A stretch of 52,433 bases of DNA from Escherichia virus TH23, in sequence record MT446397.1; one strand, given 5' to 3'. A program made the position numbers and the translations under genes. This document shows positions 1 through 52,433 of the stretch, piece after piece. The notes below the pieces were generated by a model. That model had not been told where the DNA came from. It searched no databases and was given only the letters and a program-made list of their open reading frames with translations. The stretch's first letter is position 1. Every line of letters begins with the position of its first letter.

Positions 1-433
1 CGTGCTCTGATTGCCTTTGACCTTGACCCACTACCTAACTTGGTGTTGATTGAAAGCCGATAGGCTATAGGAAAAAGTTGGGGTAGGGACCGTATTTAAG
101 TCCGATAGGACGTTGGGCTTCCCCTCCTCGGAGATAAAATTTTAAAAATAATAATGACACAACTTCCCCCCCCCGCCACCTCAAAAATAAAATAATATCG
201 CCACAATTCTAGTCTCATTAATATTGAAACAATTCGAGTCTCATTAATTCCGTAGCAATATTTAAATTAAAAAAAAAATTATATAAAATTTTTATAACAT
301 AGTCGGGCTTCTGTTCGAACAAATTTCGGCTAGATACAGCTGACCGATTGTGAACGAGTCTATGTCCAGATACAGTTGACCGATCATTTACCATTTGGTT
401 TGAACTTTACGCATTCCTAATATTACTTTAAAT
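1..433. repeat. Direct terminal repeat, left copy (equals 52000..52433 except poly-C run of 9 vs 10)
   Basis: Window start cgtgctctgattgcc...tattactttaaat recurs at the window end; AT-rich, contains poly-C, poly-A and short internal direct repeats. True repeat may extend beyond the window edges. Confidence 0.85.
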
Positions 434-565
434 ATTGTAGCAATATTGGGAATAAGTAATATTGAAAACTTACTTATTTTATTCTAGCTCAAAGAGAAAC
501 GACGCTAACGCATCGAATCTCTTCTCACATATTAACTGACAAACGTCAGCCTTCACCATACCCAA

Positions 566-24791: not shown

Positions 24792-26837
24792 TTACATCCA
24801 TGCCGAGTAGTTGGCACTTGGGCCGGAGAATTCGATTGCAACCATATCTGAAACGTTATCGACACAATCGTCGTGTCCAGTACCACTACCCAAAGAAGTG
24901 AATCCAAGTATTTCACGTCTAACGTGGTCAATGTGTTCATGACCAGCAGGGAAGAATATCCTCTTTTGAGAGAAATATGGGATTGCGTTAAGGAATCGAG
25001 TTACCTTGTCATTACCGTTAATGCCATCGCGAGGCAGTGGTAAGACTCGGACACTCCCATCTCTAATAAATTGTTGGTTCAAGAACTGTCCAGCAGACTT
25101 ATCTTCCATGTACAAAGCACGAGGAATGCAGCCTACATATTTCAAATCCAACTTATTGCATTTATTCCAGAAGTCGATAATAGCAGTCTTGAGTTCTGGA
25201 GTTTCAAACTTACCGAGCATGATATCTAAACAATAAACATCACGCTCTTTAGTCACGCCCCAATGCTTAAGGACCGAATAGTCAGAATAAGACTTGGCAG
25301 TAGATGCCGTGTCAGCAGTAATGAAACTTCTAACTATGCGACTTCTGTCGAAAGCGTCTGGCTCATACTCTTGCCACCAATCTTCTTTAACAAGGCCATG
25401 ACCTTGGGCAGACGGGTCGCCAGCATACTGTGAGTTGTATGTGTATGGGTTGGACTCCTTCATTGCCTCCAAAGATTCTAAACTCTTACGTGAGGGCCAC
25501 AATGCAGACTTCTCTTCTTTCCTGTTCAAATCATAGAGAATAGGGATAGCATGAGTGTAGTTCTGCTTCTTAATTAATTTGTCGTACCACTGAGCACTGC
25601 CAACACCTTTCTCAATAATCGCTGGGATGTTGAGATAATGATATTTATCAGAGGAACCACCACGGAGTATATAGCCAACTAAATCTTGGTCATGAACTCG
25701 CTGCATGATGATAACCATTGGAGTACGAGAGCACTTAATTTGGTTTCCACGAGAATCGGTTATGCACCCATCATTGGCAAGACGGGACATAAAGGTGTTA
25801 TCAAAGCGGTCGTTGATTTCTGCTCGAACTGTGTCAGAGTAGGCATCCTTAGGTTTGATAACGTCATCCACCACAAAGCAACCAGAGTAGTTTGCAACAA
25901 GAAGTCCAGCACCTTTACCAGTTAATTTACCACCAGTAGGTACTGCGTGCATAACTCCAGCTTTGGTCGTACCCCAGCGTTCAAGGGAACGTTTGTTGGG
26001 GTCGATTCTCACCTTTGGGAATATGCGTTGGAATAGTGGGTCCAGCATTACTGCGCGGATGTAACCGCTCGATTCCAATACAACGTCTTCTGCATAGGAG
26101 GTGATGATGTTGTGGCTTGATTCATTGTGGCAAAATGAATACAGTGGTAGTGCAATACTCATAAGCTGAGTCTTGGAATGTCGTGGTGGAATGGTGACAA
26201 TTAGTCGGTCAATCTCACCGTCAACAACTTTCTGACCTACTTTGAATATTACATCGTGAAAGTCTTGAGACTGGAATGGGAATCCCATTTGAATATGGAA
26301 CTGCCATTTACCAAATGCTTCAAAACTCTTCATCAAAACTTTACGGACTTGTTCTGCAACCTTGGCTGGGATTACAGATGGGTCAACGTTGTGTGGGTCA
26401 TAAAGGATTTTATCGACAAGCTCTTGAGTATTGTCGTGTTCAGAAGTTGGCTCTTCTAAAGTCGAACCAGCTACACGGTCTGATACCCCAGCTTGGATTC
26501 CTTTCTTCAACTCGTCGGCATACGCAGTTGAATCTTTCTTATCGCCAGAGCGAAGGCGCTCAAGTTGTGCTCGGAAAACGGAACGCAACACAGCATCGTT
26601 TTCCAGACCCTGGCCTTCTAACTCTGCTTGAATTTGTTCTTCATAGCTGTCAACTATCGCAGAGTTTTCTGAAATATATCGACGGAGCAATGGCAAAGAT
26701 AGAATGCAGAATCTTTCTCTTGAGACTTTTAATACGTCACCGTAGTGTTTGGCAAGATACGAGGCTACTGTATCATTAAACTCCGGTCCGAGGTCATCAG
26801 TCTTTGACATTGATTCGTTCTCTTTGGTTTTAATCAC
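24792..26837 (-). CDS. Terminase large subunit
   Basis: 681 aa; Walker A-like VTIPPRHSKTQL, acidic FVVDDV, C-terminal nuclease-like GTGHDDCVD; GTG start with roughly 100-aa N-terminal extension, so the true start may be downstream. Confidence 0.7.
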   Translation of the reverse strand: MIKTKENESMSKTDDLGPEFNDTVASYLAKHYGDVLKVSRERFCILSLPLLRRYISENSAIVDSYEEQIQAELEGQGLENDAVLRSVFRAQLERLRSGDKKDSTAYADELKKGIQAGVSDRVAGSTLEEPTSEHDNTQELVDKILYDPHNVDPSVIPAKVAEQVRKVLMKSFEAFGKWQFHIQMGFPFQSQDFHDVIFKVGQKVVDGEIDRLIVTIPPRHSKTQLMSIALPLYSFCHNESSHNIITSYAEDVVLESSGYIRAVMLDPLFQRIFPKVRIDPNKRSLERWGTTKAGVMHAVPTGGKLTGKGAGLLVANYSGCFVVDDVIKPKDAYSDTVRAEINDRFDNTFMSRLANDGCITDSRGNQIKCSRTPMVIIMQRVHDQDLVGYILRGGSSDKYHYLNIPAIIEKGVGSAQWYDKLIKKQNYTHAIPILYDLNRKEEKSALWPSRKSLESLEAMKESNPYTYNSQYAGDPSAQGHGLVKEDWWQEYEPDAFDRSRIVRSFITADTASTAKSYSDYSVLKHWGVTKERDVYCLDIMLGKFETPELKTAIIDFWNKCNKLDLKYVGCIPRALYMEDKSAGQFLNQQFIRDGSVRVLPLPRDGINGNDKVTRFLNAIPYFSQKRIFFPAGHEHIDHVRREILGFTSLGSGTGHDDCVDNVSDMVAIEFSGPSANYSAWM

Positions 26838-41493: not shown

Positions 41494-41510
41494 TTCAATT
41501 CCAACTAATG
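41494..41510 (-). promoter_or_regulatory. Conserved intergenic motif copy (candidate phage promoter)
   Basis: Minus strand CATTAGTTGGAATTGAA, at the upstream edge of the 40.9-41.7 kb island. Confidence 0.3.
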
Positions 41511-41609: not shown

Positions 41610-41634
41610 GCCTTTCTTCCCTAAGAGGTCAGAA

Positions 41635-41650
41635 TCAAATCCCACTAATG
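41635..41650 (-). promoter_or_regulatory. Conserved intergenic motif copy (candidate phage promoter)
   Basis: Minus strand CATTAGTGGGATTTGA; shares a 14-nt identity (actaatgtttcaga) with the 41494 copy. Confidence 0.3.
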
Positions 41651-45105: not shown

Positions 45106-45483
45106 TTAGAATGGAATATCGTCGTCGAAGTCTTTCGGCTCGTTCGGATTGTAGTTACTGTTCTGCGTCTGTTGCTGAATAGGTGCTTGCTGTTGTGCAG
45201 CAGGTTGCTGGCGTTGCTGTTGCTGTTGAGCAGCAGCTTGAGGTTGAGCTTTGGCTTTAGCTTTCTCTTCACGCTTACGCATCATTTCATCAACTTGTTC
45301 TTGGGTCATGATGGTGAGTGCCAGCGAGGTAAATTCATTACCATTGGCTTGCTTGTTCCAACCAGACACCCAATACCAGATTCCGTCAACGTTAATACGT
45401 CCACGAACGTCAGGATGTTTTGGGTCTTTCTTAAAGCCATTGGAACCGATGATGCCAGTGTTTACGTCTGAATATTGTGCCAT
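45106..45483 (-). CDS. Small protein with Q/P/A-rich linker and C-terminal DFDDDIPF (SSB-tail protein; minimal SSB or SSB-tail decoy)
   Basis: 125 aa; last eight residues equal the E. coli SSB C-terminal peptide; N-terminal region about 70 aa (GRINVDGIWYWVSGW); conserved motif about 80 nt upstream. Confidence 0.5.
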   Translation of the reverse strand: MAQYSDVNTGIIGSNGFKKDPKHPDVRGRINVDGIWYWVSGWNKQANGNEFTSLALTIMTQEQVDEMMRKREEKAKAKAQPQAAAQQQQQRQQPAAQQQAPIQQQTQNSNYNPNEPKDFDDDIPF

Positions 45484-45554: not shown

Positions 45555-45572
45555 TCTCACATCCAACTAATG
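45555..45572 (-). promoter_or_regulatory. Conserved intergenic motif copy (candidate phage promoter)
   Basis: Minus strand CATTAGTTGGATGTGAGA, about 80 nt upstream of the SSB-tail gene start. Confidence 0.35.
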
Positions 45573-47999: not shown

Positions 48000-48000
48000 T

Positions 48001-48252
48001 TCAGAATCCTTTAGTGTATCCAACAGTTTTACGTAGAATGATTTCATCATTTGAACCACCTGGCTCTAATTCGATTTCGATTTCAACAACATCACTGTCT
48101 TTAAGTTTACATGCACGGCTTGAGTCATAGAATCTTACAGTGTTGTACAGACCACACTCACCCTCCACCTTAATACATTTGATAGAATTGTAAGTGAAGA
48201 TTTGACCTTCTGACAGGTCAGCAAATTTTGCACGTTTGTTGATGGTGTCCAT
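48001..48252 (-). CDS. Hypothetical protein
   Basis: 83-aa ORF. Confidence 0.35.
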   Translation of the reverse strand: MDTINKRAKFADLSEGQIFTYNSIKCIKVEGECGLYNTVRFYDSSRACKLKDSDVVEIEIELEPGGSNDEIILRKTVGYTKGF

Positions 48253-48288
48253 TATAGCTCCGAAGTTGGAGGGTTACTCCCCCCCATA

Positions 48289-48507
48289 TTAAACTGAAAT
48301 TGGCTCTTGAACTAAATCAGAAGCTGAGATTTCTTTAAACTCTTCTTCTGTAAAAGTTCTCTCATTGTCATTTAATAAAACACCAATGTTAGAATCACCA
48401 ACGAACACAGCATTTACATTAATGTCATCTTCCAAAACCTTTTGCAGATGTTCCCCACCACGCGTGAAGAAGATTGCACCATCTTCCAAATCTTTAAAAC
48501 GAGTCAT
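48289..48507 (-). CDS. Hypothetical acidic protein
   Basis: 72-aa ORF, first gene after the repeat-rich region. Confidence 0.35.
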   Translation of the reverse strand: MTRFKDLEDGAIFFTRGGEHLQKVLEDDINVNAVFVGDSNIGVLLNDNERTFTEEEFKEISASDLVQEPISV

Positions 48508-48797
48508 TTTATTCTCCTAAGTTAAAAGAAAACTCCCGTCATAACGATTGTGGAGGTCTTGTATTACCTTAATCCACCTTAAAGAATCAGGGAGTTATAT
48601 AGTATTCCTGTGTGTGCCGCCATCATGGACTTCCTAGTCTGGTGGGCGCGTTGCAATCCAGCAATAAACCACACGTTTTTCACAGGCTATATATGTGACA
48701 CACAAAGTGTCTAAAAACTACAATGATTAGCTTGGAGACATAATCTCTCTAAAATCTGTCACACAATTTCAGCAGAATTCACAGAGATTTGGTCTTA

Positions 48798-48814
48798 TTC
48801 ACATACAACTAATG
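48798..48814 (-). promoter_or_regulatory. Conserved intergenic motif copy (candidate phage promoter)
   Basis: Minus strand CATTAGTTGTATGTGAA. Confidence 0.3.
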
Positions 48815-48859
48815 ATAAATGAACATGCTTAATTGCAACTAACTCATCTGCCAAATAGA

Positions 48860-49715
48860 CGAATTTTGTCACAATTAAACATGCGTCATTAATTACAGGT
48901 TTACTCCCACCTTGAATGTATTTGGCACATTAAGATTGGAGCAAGCAGGTACGGAAAACCGACCATGTACAGCATAATAAAACTAATTAAATAAAGGGTT
49001 TTATCCCAATATTGTCACAATATTTACATGCGATGATAAAGCCTTCGCTTGGCTGGAAGCCAGTATTCATGCGGGTTGCAAGAATATTGGGTCAATACTG
49101 ATACAGCTATTACATGTGAAATTGGCACAAATACTGTTACAAAATTAACATGCCGGATTGGTAGACAATTGTATCTTCGAGGTGATTAGTCCTCTAACAA
49201 TTCTGCCACATTCTAACATGCCAATTTGTAGCAATATTTACATGCCATACTGTGACGCAATTGTCACAATATTTGTTGCTCAAAATCGGGGCGGGCTACG
49301 GGATTAGTTTCGCGGCTTTGCTCCGACTCTTCTCTTCTTTCGAATTAAGATAGAAAGAAAGAAGCATGTCCAAAAGTTCCAGTCTTGCCAAAGTTATCTC
49401 CCGGCTTGTGGGTGGGCCTTTATAATAGGAGATGGAGCAATATTGTCGCAATTGAACATGCTTTAGTTGAAGAACAGTTTCGAATGATAATCCTACTTCA
49501 CACATGGTTGCTGGAACTTTGTCTGGCCAAAGACAGGGAGTTCAATGATTGCCACATCATTACAACGCTGTGTGTTTAGTTGACATGCTGAAATGTTTCT
49601 AGAATGATTTCAACATGACATGCGGAATACTTCTCCGTATTCTGTTACTTCACATCCAACTAATGTCGAATATTGAAACAATATTACATGCAGCAATATT
49701 GCTTGAATATTGGGA
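48860..49715. repeat. Cluster of at least nine degenerate copies of an AT-rich 20-mer (consensus TTGTCACAATATTTACATGC), mostly one orientation, one palindromic unit TGTGACgcaattGTCACA
   Basis: Copies near 48866, 49011, 49122, 49201, 49225, 49249-49280, 49441, 49550 and 49676; related copies near 199-270 and 435-470. Confidence 0.6.
49649..49665 (-). promoter_or_regulatory. Conserved intergenic motif copy (candidate phage promoter)
   Basis: Minus strand CATTAGTTGGATGTGAA, about 75 nt downstream of the RNA polymerase terminator. Confidence 0.35.
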
Positions 49716-49737
49716 ATTAAAGGATTTAATTAATAAA

Positions 49738-49774
49738 GAATAAAGAAAGGGCCATCACCTTTCGATGACAGCCC
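49738..49774 (-). terminator. Intrinsic terminator immediately downstream of the RNA polymerase gene
   Basis: Minus strand: stop codon, gaaaca, GGGCUGUCAUC-GAAA-GGUGAUGGCCC (about 11-bp stem, GNRA loop), then UUUCUUUAUUC. Confidence 0.55.
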
Positions 49775-49782
49775 TGTTTCTC

Positions 49783-51897
49783 TTATTGACAGAAGTAGTA
49801 AGCGTGTTCGCTCATCAGAAGCTCTTCGGTTACGATGTTCTCATGATACATCTGAATGCCACCAAGTTGCTTAGACAGATTCTCGAATTGATTGTTGGTT
49901 ACGAAGATTTCAACATATGCTGCACGAATAACTTCCATCATTTTAGGAGCATCAGCTAAGCAGCAACGGAAACAATCATGGATTGAAGTAAAGCCACGAA
50001 GACCAGCTTCTTTAGCTTTGACTGCAACAGTACGAGCAACCAATGCGTCAATACCTTGAATGTAGTTAACAACGAAGGTACGTTTGAATTCCTCTTTAGT
50101 TGGATTGGACTCACGAATGGTCCAAGGCTTATTCTCCTGAATCTGACCAAAGATGACACGAGTTTGAGAGTCAACACGAATGCTGAATGCATCACAAACA
50201 TCACGAGATGGGAAGCAAGGTTTCATTACAACTTGACCATCAGTGTGCTTATATGTGATGTACTCTTTGTTGAGTTCAACACAACGAGCAAATGCAGCAT
50301 CAGCAGCTTTCTCGATGAACATGTTAATCTTAGCACCCAATGCGTTATGGATTGCTTCAACACAAAGTTCAGCAAATGCTTCGGCTTTCTCCATAGGAAT
50401 CTGGAGAGCTTCTGTCATGTATGCGGTGAAATCAGAAGAACCAGTCAATGCAGCTTTACCACCACCATATTGGATAGCCATGTATGGAGTTTTGATAAAC
50501 TTACGACCAGCTTTCGGATTCAAGAATTCATCCATAATTTCAGCGGATGGTTTCATTGAAGAACGGTCAAGCAACTTCAACAGTTCACGAAGAGATAACT
50601 GGTATGGGTCAGATGCTTTAGTCTCAGAATCAACCAGACCTGTAGCACGAGCCATTTCCATGTTACCAGCAATGAATGCCAAGTATTGGGTACCAGAACA
50701 TTTAGCATCTAAGCCAAAGCCTACACGAGAATCACACTCACCTGTAGTCTCAAACTTGAACCAATCCAGAGCCAGACGAACATAAGTGAATGGCTTAGAA
50801 GGACGCTCACCTTTAGGCATGTTCAGCATACGAGCCAAAGAACCAGCAGGATTCTGTGCAACATAAGTTAAACGTTTTGCAGAAGTCCAGTCTCCACCAG
50901 CAATATCTTCCAGCTCAAGCATGAACATGTTGTATGCCAGAGTTGTTGAGCCATCATCATTAAACTTGCTCACAGTGTTCTCAACATTGTGGGAATACAG
51001 GCAACGAGCAAAGTCGGATGATTGTGGGTTAGGACCAGCACATGCTACATGATACAAACGACCACGGTTATCAGCAAAGTAGTCAGAGAACAGAGTGTCC
51101 TGCCCAACCATTGCTACAGCATTGTTCCAAACATGGAGTTCAGTCTGGATTGCTTCTGGCATCTGTAAGCCACCAAAGGTACGTTGTTCTAACATGGAAG
51201 AGATAACCTTAACCATTGTTGCATCAACGTGATATTCAGTATCTTGCAGGAATTCGATTGCAGCTTTCAGAGTCTTGGATGGCTTAACTTTGCCACCTTT
51301 AACGAAAGGCTTGCGACGAGATTCAGTTGTTACACGCTCAGTGAATGGAACTGAGGTATCTTTGGTTGTAACCAGCTCAACCCATGCATCAGTCATCTGG
51401 AACGATTTGTCCTCGTTCATGGTGATGAAACCGAAGTGCTTAGCTAAACCAATGAGGTTGATAGCTGGGTCAACATAGTGCATTGCTTTCAGGTCGTTGT
51501 TATAACGGTTGGCATCAGCAATAGAAGCAGAAGCCAGCTCGACCATTGCAATGGCTGGGACAACATCATCACGAGTGAATGACGTCATCATCTTGAAGAT
51601 TGCAAGAGCAGCAATAGCACAGGTCTGAGGCTGCATGTAATTCTGTTTCTCTTTGGCACGGTATACCAGAGCCGTGATAGCAGGGACAACGGATTTGATA
51701 GTTTGAGTTGAGATAGTTGTCATTTTGCGAGTCTCCAAGTTAGTTTCGGTTTTAGTTTCGGATTGTGTAGCAGCAGTGATTTCGTCAACCATTTGGTTGC
51801 AACGGTCCATCGTATCAAGCACGTCTTTCCAACCGTGGCCTTCTTCTTTTAAGCGAGCGCCATCAGCAGCCAGTGCGCGATATTCTTCGTTAGTCAT
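49783..51897 (-). CDS. Single-subunit T7-like DNA-dependent RNA polymerase (small, 704 aa)
   Basis: Motif A FGLDAKCSGTQYLAF (T7 FDGSCSGIQHF), motif B RKFIKTPYMAIQYGGG (T7 RSVTKRSVMTLAYGS), motif C FTSIHDCF...ADAPKM (T7 ALIHDSF...ADAANL); GGAG Shine-Dalgarno. Confidence 0.85.
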   Translation of the reverse strand: MTNEEYRALAADGARLKEEGHGWKDVLDTMDRCNQMVDEITAATQSETKTETNLETRKMTTISTQTIKSVVPAITALVYRAKEKQNYMQPQTCAIAALAIFKMMTSFTRDDVVPAIAMVELASASIADANRYNNDLKAMHYVDPAINLIGLAKHFGFITMNEDKSFQMTDAWVELVTTKDTSVPFTERVTTESRRKPFVKGGKVKPSKTLKAAIEFLQDTEYHVDATMVKVISSMLEQRTFGGLQMPEAIQTELHVWNNAVAMVGQDTLFSDYFADNRGRLYHVACAGPNPQSSDFARCLYSHNVENTVSKFNDDGSTTLAYNMFMLELEDIAGGDWTSAKRLTYVAQNPAGSLARMLNMPKGERPSKPFTYVRLALDWFKFETTGECDSRVGFGLDAKCSGTQYLAFIAGNMEMARATGLVDSETKASDPYQLSLRELLKLLDRSSMKPSAEIMDEFLNPKAGRKFIKTPYMAIQYGGGKAALTGSSDFTAYMTEALQIPMEKAEAFAELCVEAIHNALGAKINMFIEKAADAAFARCVELNKEYITYKHTDGQVVMKPCFPSRDVCDAFSIRVDSQTRVIFGQIQENKPWTIRESNPTKEEFKRTFVVNYIQGIDALVARTVAVKAKEAGLRGFTSIHDCFRCCLADAPKMMEVIRAAYVEIFVTNNQFENLSKQLGGIQMYHENIVTEELLMSEHAYYFCQ

Positions 51898-51959
51898 GAT
51901 AAGTCTCCAATTGATTATGATTTAACTGAAACGGATTAGACTTGCGTAGCCTATTCATA

Positions 51960-51977
51960 ATCACAACCAACTAATGG
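51960..51977 (-). promoter_or_regulatory. Conserved intergenic motif copy (candidate promoter), upstream of the RNA polymerase gene
   Basis: Minus strand CCATTAGTTGGTTGTGAT, about 70 nt upstream of the polymerase ATG. Confidence 0.3.
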
Positions 51978-51999
51978 TAAGGCTAGCTCGTTACAACAG

Positions 52000-52433
52000 C
52001 GTGCTCTGATTGCCTTTGACCTTGACCCACTACCTAACTTGGTGTTGATTGAAAGCCGATAGGCTATAGGAAAAAGTTGGGGTAGGGACCGTATTTAAGT
52101 CCGATAGGACGTTGGGCTTCCCCTCCTCGGAGATAAAATTTTAAAAATAATAATGACACAACTTCCCCCCCCCCGCCACCTCAAAAATAAAATAATATCG
52201 CCACAATTCTAGTCTCATTAATATTGAAACAATTCGAGTCTCATTAATTCCGTAGCAATATTTAAATTAAAAAAAAAATTATATAAAATTTTTATAACAT
52301 AGTCGGGCTTCTGTTCGAACAAATTTCGGCTAGATACAGCTGACCGATTGTGAACGAGTCTATGTCCAGATACAGTTGACCGATCATTTACCATTTGGTT
52401 TGAACTTTACGCATTCCTAATATTACTTTAAAT
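52000..52433. repeat. Direct terminal repeat, right copy
   Basis: Matches 1..433 with one extra C in the poly-C run. Confidence 0.85.

What the first reader, a model, noticed from the sequence alone, without database searches (positions are those of the whole stretch)
48860..49715. AT-rich 20-mer repeat array between the polymerase terminator and the first early genes, with relatives near the genome end
At least nine degenerate copies of TTGTCACAATATTTACATGC occur in about 0.85 kb, including a palindromic unit TGTGAC-N6-GTCACA at 49249..49268, and related copies lie at 199..270 and 435..470. The location just downstream of the polymerase gene parallels the T7 primary origin. It could be a replication origin, an operator array, or a second promoter class.
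Basis: partly seen in the sequence, partly recalled or inferred. Interest (0 to 1): 0.5.

Follow-up and report, generated by a model that had tools for sequence, protein, structure and literature searches.

The report
Oriented repeat array at terminal-repeat edge
A non-coding stretch after the RNA polymerase gene of this E. coli phage holds a dozen same-direction copies of a short motif; the copies are conserved across the phage subfamily, sit on both sides of where the genome's terminal repeat ends, and have an unknown, apparently undescribed function.

Summary
The window is the reverse complement of a Carltongylesvirus (Chaseviridae), 100% identical to phages TH28 and TH33. All genes lie on the minus strand.

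Between the T7-like RNA polymerase gene and the first early gene there are 12 co-oriented repeats. On the gene strand each is GCATGT followed by a loose 17-bp dyad, AATATTG-N3-CAATATT. A matrix trained only on other phages finds 8 strong hits, all at 48884-49691, and no other gene-strand hit.

GCATGT is the constrained part. Ten of the 12 copies keep their position in at least 4 of 5 other genera.

By homology with five phages whose ends are mapped or predicted, the inner edge of the roughly 2.8-kb terminal repeat falls at about 49329, splitting the array 4 to 8. An Aeromonas relative has a different motif (GTATGAGACA) arranged the same way.

The array is only marginally AT-rich. It does not fit a sigma-70 promoter class or a regularly spaced iteron origin. 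The dispersed motif already proposed as the phage promoter is a different sequence that flanks the array.

My best guess, at about 0.3, is a recognition array for terminal-repeat processing or packaging. Rivals are a second phage-polymerase promoter class (possibly a T7-type origin), an operator array and an iteron origin.

The parts
49783..51897 (-). [quoted passage not shown] It lies inside the inferred terminal repeat.
   Evidence: Pfam RNA_pol, E = 2e-19. tblastn shows 94-100% identity to Carltongylesvirus RNA polymerases.
49748..49775 (-). Intrinsic terminator after the polymerase gene.
   Evidence: 12-bp stem with 6 GC pairs, followed by a T-run. Annotated as a terminator in SA91KD.
49649..49665 (-). 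M2 copy 1: CATTAGTTGGATGTGAA, the previously proposed phage promoter, at the upstream edge of the array.
   Evidence: Zero mismatches. Annotated 'putative phage promoter 1' in phiEcoM-GJ1 and as a promoter in SA91KD.
49669..49691 (-). Array copy 1: GCATGT plus a perfect dyad AATATTGTTTCAATATT. Inside the inferred terminal repeat.
   Evidence: Matrix score 23.6; listed. Positionally conserved only in phiEcoM-GJ1 among the five other phages aligned.
49601..49623 (-). Array copy 2: GCATGT CATGTTGAAATC.
   Evidence: Matrix score 14.8. GCATGT or GCATGA at the aligned columns in all 5 other phages aligned.
49566..49588 (-). Array copy 3: GCATGT CAACTAAACACA.
   Evidence: Listed. The hexamer is conserved in all 5 other phages aligned.
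49439..49461 (-). Array copy 4: GCATGT TCAATTGCGACAATATTG. This is the last copy inside the inferred terminal repeat.
   Evidence: Matrix score 22.4. Conserved in 4 of 5 other phages aligned.
49422..49429 (-). Conserved CCTATTAT box, which resembles a -10 element.
   Evidence: Lies 92-108 nt upstream of the terminal-repeat inner boundary in Mangalitsa, 4HA13, Myduc, Y2 and PM1. Part of a sigma-70-like match, TTGCGA-18-TATTAT.
49325..49333 (.). Inferred inner (right) boundary of the direct terminal repeat. The last repeat base is at about 49329.
   Evidence: Homology to the Mangalitsa PhageTerm boundary. The position is homologous to within about 10 nt in 4HA13 (with the alignment). It is comparable in 4HA13, Myduc, Y2 and PM1, judged by a constant 92-108 nt distance from the CCTATTAT box.
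49223..49245 (-). Array copy 5: GCATGT AAATATTGCTACAAATTG.
   Evidence: Matrix score 20.0. Conserved in all 5 other phages aligned.
49199..49221 (-). Array copy 6: GCATGT TAGAATGTGGCAGAATTG. It is followed by about 50 nt of conserved sequence.
   Evidence: Matrix score 22.0. Conserved in all 5 other phages aligned.
49131..49153 (-). Array copy 7: GCATGT TAATTTTGTAACAGTATT.
   Evidence: Matrix score 19.8. Conserved in all 5 other phages aligned.
49095..49117 (-). Array copy 8: variant ACATGT AATAGCTGTATCAGTATT.
   Evidence: Listed. The aligned columns read GCATGT in 4 of the 5 other phages aligned.
49050..49072 (-). Array copy 9: variant GCATGA ATACTGG.
   Evidence: Listed. GCATGA is conserved in 3 of the 5 other phages aligned.
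49009..49031 (-). Array copy 10: the consensus copy, GCATGT AAATATTGTGACAATATT. It is followed by GGGAT and a roughly 40-bp AT/T-rich tract.
Evidence: Matrix score 19.8. The AT-richness of the downstream tract is kept without sequence conservation.
48862..48884 (-). Array copy 11: GCATGT TTAATTGTGACAAAATTC.
   Evidence: Matrix score 21.5. Conserved in all 5 other phages aligned.
48806..48828 (-). Array copy 12: GCATGT TCATTTATCATTAG.
48798..48814 (-). M2 copy 2: CATTAGTTGTATGTGAA, at the downstream edge of the array.
   Evidence: Annotated 'putative phage promoter 2' in phiEcoM-GJ1.
48531..48596 (-). Conserved hairpin ACTCCC...GGGAGU followed by UUUUCUUUU, directly before the ribosome-binding site of the first early gene.
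   Evidence: Fold of -21.4 kcal/mol. The outer stem is conserved, and it is reduced to a simple hairpin plus T-run in L016.
48289..48507 (-). First early gene after the array (72 aa, unknown function).
   Evidence: ORF listed. Matches phrog_2183, E = 2e-14.
52194..52262 (-). Three dyad-only relatives in 26-bp tandem units (dyad plus AATGAGACT), next to a tract of 21% GC. They lie upstream of the polymerase gene and outside the terminal repeat. This is the same DNA as window 194-262.
   Evidence: phiEcoM-GJ1 annotates a putative sigma-70 promoter across the homologous units.
431..447 (-). Perfect dyad AATATTGTAGCAATATT, without GCATGT, in the same intergenic region (between the ribonucleotide reductase small-subunit gene and the polymerase gene).
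   Evidence: Conserved in Faunus and L013.
52095..52103 (.). Inferred left end of the terminal repeat (...CCTATCGGA|CTTAAATACGGTCCC).
   Evidence: Homologous to the first bases of the Mangalitsa, 4HA13, Y2 and PM1 records, to within 4 nt.

Best explanation
I give this at two levels of confidence.

**Level 1 (about 0.8): what it is.** The array is a single-locus, cis-acting set of recognition sites for a sequence-specific factor that is probably encoded by the phage. Each site is an invariant asymmetric hexamer, GCATGT, read in the direction of the genes. In about 44% of copies a 17-bp dyad (nAwwTTG-N3-CAAwwTn) abuts it.

**Level 2 (about 0.3): the mechanism I commit to.** The sites mark the inner edge of the long direct terminal repeat and act in concatemer processing and packaging.
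- A directional machine reads the co-oriented hexamers on both sides of the point where the repeat ends. That machine would be the terminase with its small subunit or an accessory dimeric protein, possibly coupled to transcription from the phage promoter just upstream.
- This positions or licenses the cut or nick that creates the right genome end, about 100 nt downstream of the conserved CCTATTAT box.

**Shown:** the motif, its orientation, its exclusivity to this locus, its conservation, and its position relative to the repeat boundary.
**Inferred:** that a protein binds the sites, which protein it is, and the link to end formation.
For: **The array is specific to this locus.**
- A matrix trained on other phages finds 8 gene-strand hits, all at 48884-49691, and no other gene-strand hit in 52 kb. 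A packaging or end signal is expected to be a single locus.

**The hexamer is the constrained part.**
- On average 4.39 of 5 other genera are identical to the window at the GCATGT positions, against 3.34 for the rest of the region.
- None of 2000 random hexamer sets reaches that value.
- Ten of the 12 copies are positionally orthologous in at least 4 of 5 genera (alignment).

**All copies point one way.**
- ACATGC occurs 10 times on the + strand in 48600-49780, against 1 GCATGT there.
- The same holds in all nine Cleopatravirinae genomes checked. This fits a directional process.

**The terminal-repeat inner boundary maps inside the array at a comparable position in five genera.**
- Y2 (2608 bp) and PM1 (2665 bp): the repeat length was read from records that carry both copies.
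- Mangalitsa, 4HA13 and Myduc: PhageTerm annotations.
- In all five the boundary is 92-108 nt downstream of CCTATTAT.
- In the window this splits the array into 4 copies inside and 8 outside the repeat.

**A distant relative has the same layout with a different motif.**
- In Aeromonas phage ZPAH14, GTATGAGACA occurs 6 times, all on the gene strand.
- All copies lie within about 240 bp of the end of a 3373-bp terminal duplication, 4 on one side and 2 on the other. There are none elsewhere in 54 kb.
- A lineage-specific motif in a conserved layout points to a co-evolving phage factor rather than a universal host factor.

**The dyad has a mirror-symmetric information profile.**
- Mirrored positions 2/16, 5/13, 6/12 and 7/11 score 0.52/0.53, 0.51/0.56, 0.58/0.64 and 0.86/0.87 bits, and the centre is weak.
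- 44% of copies are within 5 of 14 mismatches of the dyad, against 2.6% of random positions. This is the usual signature of a dimeric DNA-binding protein.

**From my own knowledge, not tested here.**
- Repeated short motifs flank the cut site in P1 pac.
- Terminase-binding repeats occur in lambda cosB.
- T7 has arrays of CCTAAAG heptamers beside its terminal repeat.
Against: - **The co-location is weak statistically.** The array fills about 70% of the 1.2-kb non-coding region. A boundary placed anywhere in that region would probably fall inside the array. The equivalent figure for ZPAH14 is about 30%.
- **The spread is wide.** Copies lie from about 360 bp inside to about 500 bp outside the boundary, which is wider than known pac or cos sites.
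- **The nearest DNA is the least conserved.** The sequence next to the boundary is the least conserved part of the region. The boundary keeps a fixed distance from the CCTATTAT block rather than from any GCATGT copy.
- **The left boundary differs.** It has no GCATGT, and its dyad-only repeats are missing in L016.
- **One mapped phage disagrees.** PYps23T has an experimentally reported 2339-bp repeat whose ends fall in two M2 copies (PMC8762354). If that is correct, the same array tolerates a different boundary.
- **No candidate binder was found.** No small terminase subunit or DNA-binding protein could be identified.
- **A transcriptional role fits the layout equally well.** The location upstream of the early genes and the co-orientation with them would be expected for promoters too.
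Confidence: 0.3

Rival explanations
1. A second class of promoters for the phage's own single-subunit RNA polymerase, firing toward the early genes.

A sub-variant: the six copies at 49245-49031, together with the AT/T-rich tract after 49009, form a T7-type origin. In such an origin a transcript from a phage promoter primes replication.
For: **The motif can be laid out like a T7-family promoter.**
- There is a weakly AT-rich patch upstream of an invariant specificity-type hexamer, GCATGT.
- An AT-rich 6-mer follows (consensus AATATT).
- G follows in 72% of copies.

**Other points in favour**
- The copies are strictly co-oriented with all genes.
- The motif is invariant across Cleopatravirinae and replaced by a different motif where the polymerase is only about 35% identical.
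- The array sits directly after the polymerase gene, as the T7 phi1.1A/B origin does (T7 layout from memory).
- An AT-rich tract with conserved composition but unconserved sequence follows the consensus copy.
- The ICTV profile states that Chaseviridae promoters are still unidentified (PMC12842549).
Against: - No copy lies anywhere else in 52 kb.
- The different motif CATTAGTTGGATGTGAA has the distribution expected of phage promoters. It has 9 gene-strand hits at up to 3 mismatches. By my reading of the sequence, most sit upstream of genes from the polymerase gene to 31.8 kb, and the weakest (25141) falls inside the terminase ORF.
- A single-subunit polymerase normally reads one promoter family.
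- The G(G/C)ATGT-like stretch inside that motif varies freely between genera, so the two motifs are not read the same way.
- The spacing from the hexamer to G varies between 6 and 7 nt.
- Twelve tandem promoters with no genes between them would be unusual.
- The dyad tendency is left unexplained.
Confidence: 0.17
2. An operator array. A dimeric phage regulator binds the dyads and controls transcription crossing the region. That transcription would come from the flanking phage promoters or from host-type promoters such as the one at 49451-49422. The same regulator would also act at the dyad-only sites across the putative host promoter upstream of the polymerase gene.
For: - The dyad is 17 bp long with a mirror-symmetric information profile and a weak centre.
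- Dyads occur only in the two non-coding regions that flank the polymerase gene.
- In phiEcoM-GJ1 a putative sigma-70 promoter is annotated across the dyad-bearing tandem units.
- The dyad of the 49461 copy overlaps the -35 of the conserved TTGCGA-18-TATTAT match.
Against: - Across genera the dyad part is no better conserved than the rest of the region (3.31 against 3.34), whereas GCATGT is (4.39).
- More than half of the copies have a poor dyad.
- Strict co-orientation of an asymmetric hexamer is not needed for an operator.
- No helix-turn-helix or ribbon-helix-helix protein was detected among the early proteins.
- The dyad-only sites are missing in L016.
Confidence: 0.15
3. An iteron-type replication origin. 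An unknown initiator binds the repeats and opens an adjacent AT-rich stretch.
For: - The repeats are direct and co-oriented.
- Six copies lie within 215 bp (49245-49031) and are followed by a roughly 40-bp AT/T-rich tract whose composition, but not sequence, is conserved.
- A function confined to a single locus fits.
Against: - Spacing is irregular (24-216 bp) and shows no helical phasing; I derived this by hand from the copy coordinates.
- The spacers are themselves conserved.
- GC is near the level of the flanking genes.
- The replication genes are T7-like: a primase-helicase and a family A DNA polymerase. From my own knowledge, this type needs no initiator.
- No initiator-like protein was found.
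- A more origin-like stretch lies elsewhere, at 52200-52330: 21% GC beside 26-bp tandem repeats.
Confidence: 0.12
4. A cluster of host sigma-70 early promoters of the extended -10 type, in which the TGT of GCATGT is followed by an AT-rich -10. This would be the counterpart of the T7 promoters A1-A3 (T7 layout from memory).
For: - TG lies one base upstream of an AT-rich hexamer that has A at position 2 (68%) and T at position 6 (78%).
- The best-conserved copy reads TGTTAGAAT (49221), and another reads TGTTAATTT (49153).
- The array sits upstream of the early genes, and a conserved hairpin precedes the first gene.
Against: - Only 2 of the 12 window copies fit TGnTAnnnT, by my reading of the copies listed.
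- T at the first hexamer position occurs in 23% of 81 copies.
- The hexamer consensus is AATATT, with A at position 3 and T at position 5. From my own knowledge the sigma-70 -10 consensus is TATAAT, so these two positions are reversed.
- The A2/T6 pattern is equally well explained by the dyad.
- The invariant GCA is unexplained.
- There is no -35 element.
- The sigma-70 scan finds no excess of matches: 11 found against 10.2 expected.
- The counterpart motif in ZPAH14 (TATGAG) lacks the final T.
- The putative host promoter of the polymerase gene has no GCATGT.
Confidence: 0.05

Closest known systems
Short-repeat arrays (CCTAAAG heptamers) next to the terminal repeat of phage T7 (recalled from Dunn and Studier 1983; not checked here)
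   Same: - Many co-oriented copies of a short motif in non-coding DNA at the junction of the direct terminal repeat and unique sequence.
- The phage has a T7-type RNA polymerase.
- The function has not been established.
   Different: - The motif here is a 6-mer plus an optional 17-bp dyad, not a heptamer.
- The terminal repeat is about 2.8 kb and carries the polymerase gene, against 160 bp in T7.
- The copies are 24-216 bp apart and the spacers are conserved.
T7 primary replication origin (phage promoters phi1.1A/B plus an AT-rich region downstream of gene 1; from memory)
   Same: - It lies immediately downstream of the RNA polymerase gene.
- A candidate phage promoter (49649-49665) sits at its start.
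- An AT/T-rich tract follows the consensus copy.
   Different: - The repeated motif is not the proposed phage promoter.
- The region as a whole is not AT-rich.
- There are 12 copies over 0.86 kb rather than two promoters.
Terminase recognition repeats (P1 pac hexamers flanking the cut; lambda cosB R sites; SPP1 pacL/pacR; from memory)
   Same: - Short repeated motifs lie on both sides of the point where a genome end is made.
- The locus is unique in the genome.
   Different: - The spread is much wider, about 860 bp.
- Neither binding nor cleavage has been shown.
- The left end of the repeat lacks the motif.
Proposed phage-specific promoters of phiEcoM-GJ1 (Jamalludeen et al. 2008, as annotated in EF460875 and OL960574)
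   Same: - Same phage group.
- Same strand orientation.
- Two of these promoters bracket the array.
   Different: - The sequence is different: CATTAGTTGGATGTGAA.
- These motifs are dispersed upstream of gene blocks.
- The array between them is not annotated in either record.
Non-coding repeat region at the inner end of the T5 long terminal repeat (the 'injection stop' region; from memory)
   Same: - The long terminal repeat carries the first-expressed gene or genes.
- It ends in a repeat-rich non-coding stretch.
   Different: - The T5 repeat is about 10 kb and its repeats are unrelated.
- Two-step DNA entry is not known for Chaseviridae.

Membership tests
T7-type primary origin | One or more phage-polymerase promoters directly upstream of the initiation zone | tested here: inconclusive
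   A candidate promoter motif lies at 49649-49665. Its promoter activity has never been shown; the ICTV profile says promoters are unidentified.
T7-type primary origin | A strongly AT-rich stretch (about 60 bp) downstream of the promoter(s) | tested here: not met
   GC is 0.33-0.43 in the 300 bp downstream of 49649. Only a roughly 40-bp AT/T-rich tract occurs, 650 bp further on, after copy 49031.
Iteron-type origin | Closely and regularly spaced direct repeats of about 17-22 bp | tested here: not met
   The repeats are direct and co-oriented, but spacing is 24-216 bp with no helical phasing (derived by hand from the coordinates). The spacers are conserved.
Iteron-type origin | A cognate initiator gene | tested here: inconclusive
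   There are no Pfam or PHROG hits to initiators among 28 small, early or middle proteins. Most of these proteins have unknown function.
Sigma-70 extended -10 promoters | TGn followed by a hexamer approaching TATAAT (T at position 1, A at 2, T at 6) | tested here: not met
   T at position 1 occurs in 23% of 81 copies and the consensus is AATATT. By my reading, 2 of the 12 window copies fit TGnTAnnnT. The promoter scan shows no enrichment.
T7-family single-subunit polymerase promoters | A conserved asymmetric motif co-oriented with the genes, containing an AT-rich melting segment and a purine start | tested here: met
   GCATGT, then an AT-rich 6-mer, then G in 72% of copies, all on the gene strand. 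This is a match to a pattern, not a demonstration of function.
T7-family single-subunit polymerase promoters | Copies dispersed upstream of gene blocks across the genome | tested here: not met
   All matrix hits on the gene strand lie at 48884-49691.
T7-family single-subunit polymerase promoters | Initiation by the cognate polymerase | not testable with these tools
   This needs in vitro transcription or 5'-end mapping.
Operator array of a dimeric repressor | Dyad-symmetric sites with conserved arms and a free centre | tested here: met
   The information profile is mirror-symmetric, and 44% of copies are within 5 of 14 mismatches of the dyad against 2.6% of random positions. However, the dyad is not conserved above background between genera.
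Operator array of a dimeric repressor | A cognate regulator gene and overlap with a functional promoter | tested here: inconclusive
   No DNA-binding domain was detected. Overlap is seen only with predicted promoters.
Terminase recognition (pac/cos-type) repeats | Repeated motifs flanking the site where the genome end is formed | tested here: met
   By homology to five phages, the boundary at about 49329 splits the array into 4 and 8 copies. ZPAH14 shows the same layout with another motif. The ends of this particular phage were not mapped.
Terminase recognition (pac/cos-type) repeats | Binding by the small terminase subunit and dependence of cutting on the repeats | not testable with these tools
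   No small terminase subunit could even be named. The 109-aa ORF upstream of the large terminase subunit gene matches only a PHROG of unknown function.

The most novel reading that the evidence does not exclude
The array could be where the phage's own RNA polymerase and genome-end biology meet. I see two versions.

**Version a.** The GCATGT sites are the long-sought promoters, or pause signals, of the Chaseviridae polymerase. The dyad has a 3-nt centre and could extrude as an N4-like hairpin. Transcription into the repeat boundary would then drive terminal-repeat duplication and packaging, as polymerase pausing at the T7 concatemer junction does.

**Version b.** The array halts DNA entry after the polymerase gene has gone in. 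The newly made polymerase would then pull in the rest of the genome from the promoter at 49665, giving a T5/T7-like two-step entry in a myovirus.

The comparisons with N4, T7 and T5 rest on my own knowledge and were not tested here.
Probability: 0.12. Interest if true: 0.75.

Novelty: new variant of a known kind. Interest (0 to 1): 0.5.

Why it matters
- **Gaps in the family's biology.** Chaseviridae are myoviruses that carry a T7-like RNA polymerase inside a 2.3-3.4-kb terminal repeat. Their promoters are officially unidentified (ICTV 2022, PMC12842549). None of the sources I could read describes how the long repeat is cut and duplicated.
- **What this adds.** The array is the most conspicuous conserved non-coding feature I found in the region around the polymerase gene. 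It sits at the repeat's inner edge and has a counterpart with a different motif in a distant lineage.
- **What it makes testable.** It gives concrete 23-bp probes and mutation targets for asking three questions: which protein reads the sites, how genome ends are made, and how early expression is organised.
- **Practical relevance.** Several of these phages are candidates for biocontrol or therapy, for example against Erwinia (PMC11512310) and STEC (PMC9699118).
- **A correction to current annotation.** The published promoter motif and this array are two different things.

Tried and rejected
**RNA-level explanations**
- Rfam with an E-value threshold on 48000-52433 gave no hit.
- ARAGORN found no tRNA in the region.
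- A sliding RNAalifold on 7 genera, both strands, gave a structure conservation index below 0.5 everywhere. The z-scores were meaningless because the shuffled alignments fold to about 0.
- Single-sequence folds of four conserved blocks gave z-scores above -2.
- I therefore found no evidence for a structured non-coding RNA. One small hairpin (about 49513-49543) shows two compensatory changes, read by eye.

**Protein candidates**
- Pfam and PHROG scans of 28 early, middle and terminase-adjacent proteins found no DNA-binding protein, initiator or small terminase subunit.

**Promoter scans**
- The sigma-70 consensus scan showed no enrichment.

**Literature**
- The two papers most likely to describe the region are not held in the library: Jamalludeen 2008 and Born 2011. 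The ST32 paper was not found.
- The motif strings occur in no held paper.

**Host-factor sites, compared by eye from memory**
- None of these fit: CRP (the spacer is N8, not N6), LexA, DnaA box (6 of 9 at best), matS, Fis, IHF, LacI, Tus-Ter, sigma-54 and Chi.

**Other ideas rejected**
- Each GCATGT contains an ATG, so mini-ORFs are conceivable. I rejected this because no Shine-Dalgarno sequence lies upstream.
- I considered merging the array motif with the published promoter motif through a shared G(G/C)ATGT. I rejected this because that stretch varies freely among genera.
- The statistical support for the link between the terminal-repeat boundary and the array is weak, because both occupy the same roughly 1-kb non-coding region.
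Full report
**Identity and layout of the window**

The window is the reverse complement of a Carltongylesvirus (family Chaseviridae, the phiEcoM-GJ1/ST32 group). The region 48400-49800 is 100% identical to Escherichia viruses TH28 and TH33. It is 86-96% identical to many E. coli and Yersinia phages.

All long ORFs lie on the minus strand. [quoted passage not shown] A primase-helicase, a family A DNA polymerase, a large terminase subunit and a ribonucleotide reductase small subunit follow it in the direction of transcription.

Window 1-434 repeats 52000-52433, apart from one C in a homopolymer run. The sequence is therefore a circularly collapsed assembly, and the window ends are not genome ends.

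**Checking the observation**

- On the + strand, ACATGC occurs 21 times in the window. Ten of these lie in the 1.18 kb between the polymerase gene and the first early gene. The complement GCATGT occurs once there.
- Anchoring on [GA]CATG[TA] gives 12 gene-strand copies. Their gene-sense starts are 49691, 49623, 49588, 49461, 49245, 49221, 49153, 49117, 49072, 49031, 48884 and 48828.
- A 24-nt matrix built only from six other phages scores 8 of them above threshold. It finds nothing else on the gene strand of the 52-kb window. Shuffles give 0.4 hits per strand.
- The dyad AATATTG-N3-CAATATT has 23 hits at up to 3 mismatches, against 4.7 expected. The hits cluster in the array and in the intergenic region upstream of the polymerase gene.

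They carry the dyad but not ACATGC. The palindrome at 49251-49268 exists but is lost in other genera. GC in the array is 0.31-0.47, against about 0.40-0.48 in the flanking genes profiled, so "AT-rich" is only marginally right.

**Anatomy of the repeat**

I analysed 100 GCATGT copies from nine Cleopatravirinae genomes. The 17 bp after the hexamer have a mirror-symmetric information profile:

| Mirrored positions | Information (bits) |
|---|---|
| 2 / 16 | 0.52 / 0.53 |
| 5 / 13 | 0.51 / 0.56 |
| 6 / 12 | 0.58 / 0.64 |
| 7 / 11 | 0.86 / 0.87 |

The centre is weak. 44% of copies are within 5 of 14 mismatches of the dyad, against 2.6% of random positions in the same regions. This is the usual look of a site for a dimeric protein.

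Between genera, however, the dyad part is no better conserved than the rest of the region (3.31 against 3.34 of 5 genera identical). The hexamer is much better conserved (4.39). None of 2000 random hexamer sets reaches that value. Ten of the 12 copies are positionally orthologous in at least 4 of 5 other genera. GCATGT, always in gene orientation, is therefore the constrained element.

**Conservation of the whole region**

- Loci fetched with the polymerase protein and from GenBank records show 9-14 gene-strand GCATGT copies within 1-1.6 kb downstream of the polymerase gene. This holds in phiEcoM-GJ1, 4HA13, a Faunus-like contig, Myduc, Y2, PM1 and two metagenomic relatives. Antisense copies are almost absent.
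- A six-genus alignment shows that the entire non-coding region is syntenic and that many spacers are conserved as well.
- The conserved spacers include a CCTATTAT(A/C)AAGGCCC...CACAAGCCGGG block.
- They also include a roughly 50-nt block after copy 49221.
- A third conserved element is a hairpin plus U-run directly before the first early gene.

**The published promoter motif is a different element**

The SA91KD and phiEcoM-GJ1 records annotate CATTAGTTGGATGTGAA as putative phage promoters, following Jamalludeen et al. 2008. In the window this motif has 9 gene-strand hits at up to 3 mismatches, from upstream of the polymerase gene down to 25.1 kb. Shuffles give 0.47.

Two of these hits (49649-49665 and 48798-48814) bracket the array. 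Nothing is annotated between them. The ICTV profile still calls Chaseviridae promoters unidentified. The motif strings are absent from the searchable literature.

**Relation to the terminal repeat**

Chaseviridae have long direct terminal repeats. Five phages from five genera place the boundaries at comparable positions:

| Phage | Repeat length (bp) | Source |
|---|---|---|
| Y2 | 2608 | read from a record carrying both copies |
| PM1 | 2665 | read from a record carrying both copies |
| Mangalitsa | 3234 | PhageTerm annotation |
| 4HA13 | 3120 | PhageTerm annotation |
| Myduc | 3202 | PhageTerm annotation |

- In four of the five (Mangalitsa, 4HA13, Y2, PM1) the left end falls, to within 4 nt, at ...CCTATCGGA|CTTAAATACGGTCCC, which is window position about 52099. 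The start of the Myduc record is different, and its homology is uncertain.
- The inner boundary lies 92-108 nt downstream of CCTATTAT, which is window position about 49329. This is the least conserved centre of the array.
- The repeat therefore carries the polymerase gene, its terminator, promoter-motif copy 1 and four array copies. The other eight copies lie just outside it.

PYps23T is the exception. It has an experimentally reported 2339-bp repeat (PMC8762354), and both of its ends fall inside copies of the promoter motif. I could not resolve this discrepancy.

In Aeromonas phage ZPAH14, whose polymerase is about 34% identical to the window's, the layout recurs with another motif:

- A 3373-bp terminal duplication ends inside a 1042-nt non-coding region after the polymerase gene.
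- GTATGAGACA occurs six times, all on the gene strand.
- Four copies lie on one side of that end and two on the other. There are none elsewhere in 54 kb.

Vibrio phage VPs20 has a similar GTATGA-rich non-coding kilobase.

**Interpretation**

Several points are established. The array is sequence-specific and directional. It is confined to one locus. It is conserved in position, and it is lineage-specific in sequence while sitting in a conserved genome layout. That argues for a co-evolving, phage-encoded reader rather than a universal host factor.

*Sigma-70 extended -10 promoters* fit poorly.
- T at the first hexamer position occurs in only 23% of copies.
- The hexamer consensus is AATATT rather than TATAAT.
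- There is no -35 element.
- The promoter scan shows no enrichment.

*A regular iteron origin* fits poorly.
- Spacing is irregular.
- The spacers are conserved.
- No initiator was found.
- The replication genes are T7-like.

*A second class of phage-polymerase promoters* remains possible.
- The layout resembles a T7-family promoter: a specificity-type hexamer, an AT-rich 6-mer, then G.
- The consensus copy (49031) is followed by an AT-rich tract of conserved composition, as in a T7-type origin.
- Against this, the array motif is found nowhere else, and a different motif has the dispersed distribution expected of promoters.

*An operator array* is supported by the dyad but not by its conservation between genera.

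*Terminal-repeat processing or packaging* is the reading I rank first, at about 0.3. It accounts for the single locus, the directionality, the lineage-specific motif and the position astride the repeat edge. This rests on co-location, which is statistically weak because the array fills most of the non-coding region. The fixed distance of the boundary from CCTATTAT points to that block, rather than GCATGT, as the nearest determinant.

**What led nowhere**

- There were no Rfam hits and no tRNA in the region.
- Alignment folding and single-sequence folds showed no convincing conserved RNA structure.
- No DNA-binding protein, initiator or small terminase subunit was identified.
- The 2008 genome paper and the Y2 paper could not be read.

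**Verdict**

The operator and promoter readings are still open. The AT-rich origin reading is weakened.
- An additional reading emerges from the position of the terminal-repeat boundary.
- The feature appears to be undescribed. It is a new variant of a known kind, namely repeat arrays at phage genome-end and control regions.
- Interest is moderate.

Noticed in passing
window 1-434 and 52000-52433: The two window ends are the same sequence apart from a C9 versus C10 homopolymer run. The window is a circularly collapsed assembly of about 51,999 bp with a 434-bp overlap, and the terminal repeat appears only once.
   Followed up: yes
window 51960-51976, 49649-49665, 48798-48814, 45556-45572, 41634-41650, 41494-41510, 39537-39553, 31846-31862, 25141-25157 (minus strand): The motif CATTAGTTGGATGTGAA has 9 hits, all on the gene strand, against 0.47 expected. 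By my reading most lie upstream of genes and are followed by purine-rich sequence. It is annotated as the putative phage promoter in phiEcoM-GJ1 and SA91KD. No copy lies upstream of the structural genes.
   Followed up: partly
L002 1-2345 and L003 1700-1740 (Yersinia phage PYps23T): The experimentally reported 2339-bp terminal repeat of PYps23T begins and ends inside two copies of the promoter motif (...ATTAGTTGGA|YGTGAA). This disagrees with the boundaries of five other family members. Either its ends are genuinely different, or the PCR-on-ligated-DNA mapping jumped between the two 10-nt identities.
   Followed up: partly
window ~49329 and ~52099; L007, L015, L018, L021, L023: The inner boundary of the terminal repeat lies a constant 92-108 nt downstream of a CCTATTAT box in five genera. 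The last 40 nt of the repeat are purine-rich (0.60-0.80) in five of the six phages checked (4HA13, Myduc, Y2, PM1, ZPAH14). The left end falls in a conserved CCTATCGGACTTAAATACGGTCCC preceded by a T-run and a G-run.
   Followed up: partly
window 52100-52433 continuing into 435-565 (minus strand): The intergenic region upstream of the polymerase gene has several origin-like or pac-like features. It contains three 26-bp tandem units (dyad plus AATGAGACT), a tract of 21% GC and a G10 run. It also has two copies of ATCGGTCA(A/G)CTGTATCT and a cluster of four AATATT units. It looks more like a classical origin than the array does.
   Followed up: partly
L025 3132-3453 (Aeromonas phage ZPAH14); L020 2640-3060 (Vibrio phage VPs20): Distant Chaseviridae carry a different co-oriented repeat (GTATGAGACA, or GTATGA-N3-TGT) in the equivalent non-coding region. 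In ZPAH14 it flanks the end of a 3373-bp terminal duplication. The core ATGAGAC also appears in the 26-bp units upstream of the window's polymerase gene.
   Followed up: partly
window ~48600-48700: A roughly 100-bp insertion, relatively GC-rich and with imperfect inverted ends (CCTGTG...CACAGG), is absent from phiEcoM-GJ1 and from the four other genera in the alignment. It is covered in full by the TH28/TH33 and SA91KD matches.
   Followed up: no
window ~49513-49543 (minus strand): A small conserved hairpin, GAACU-CCC-UGUCU-loop-AGACA-A-AGUUC, shows two compensatory base-pair changes in other genera (UGUCU/AGACA becomes UGAGU/GCUCA). Its folding energy is not unusual (z = -0.3).
   Followed up: partly
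window 48531-48596 (minus strand): A conserved hairpin plus U-run lies immediately upstream of the ribosome-binding site of the first early gene. It could be a terminator or attenuator, or an RNase III-type processing site like the T7 R0.3 site (recalled from my own knowledge of T7).
   Followed up: partly
window 38081-38150 (minus strand): ARAGORN calls a tRNA-like gene with an undetermined anticodon. Relatives are reported to gain or lose a tRNA here (PMC8762354).
   Followed up: no
window 45106-45483 (minus strand): A 125-aa early protein ends in DDDIPF, the acidic C-terminal tail typical of single-stranded-DNA-binding proteins (from my own knowledge). It has no significant Pfam hit.
   Followed up: no
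window 49783-51897 (minus strand): The polymerase ORF is 704 aa from its first ATG, but most relatives align only from residue 53-68 and are annotated shorter. The true start may be internal.
   Followed up: no
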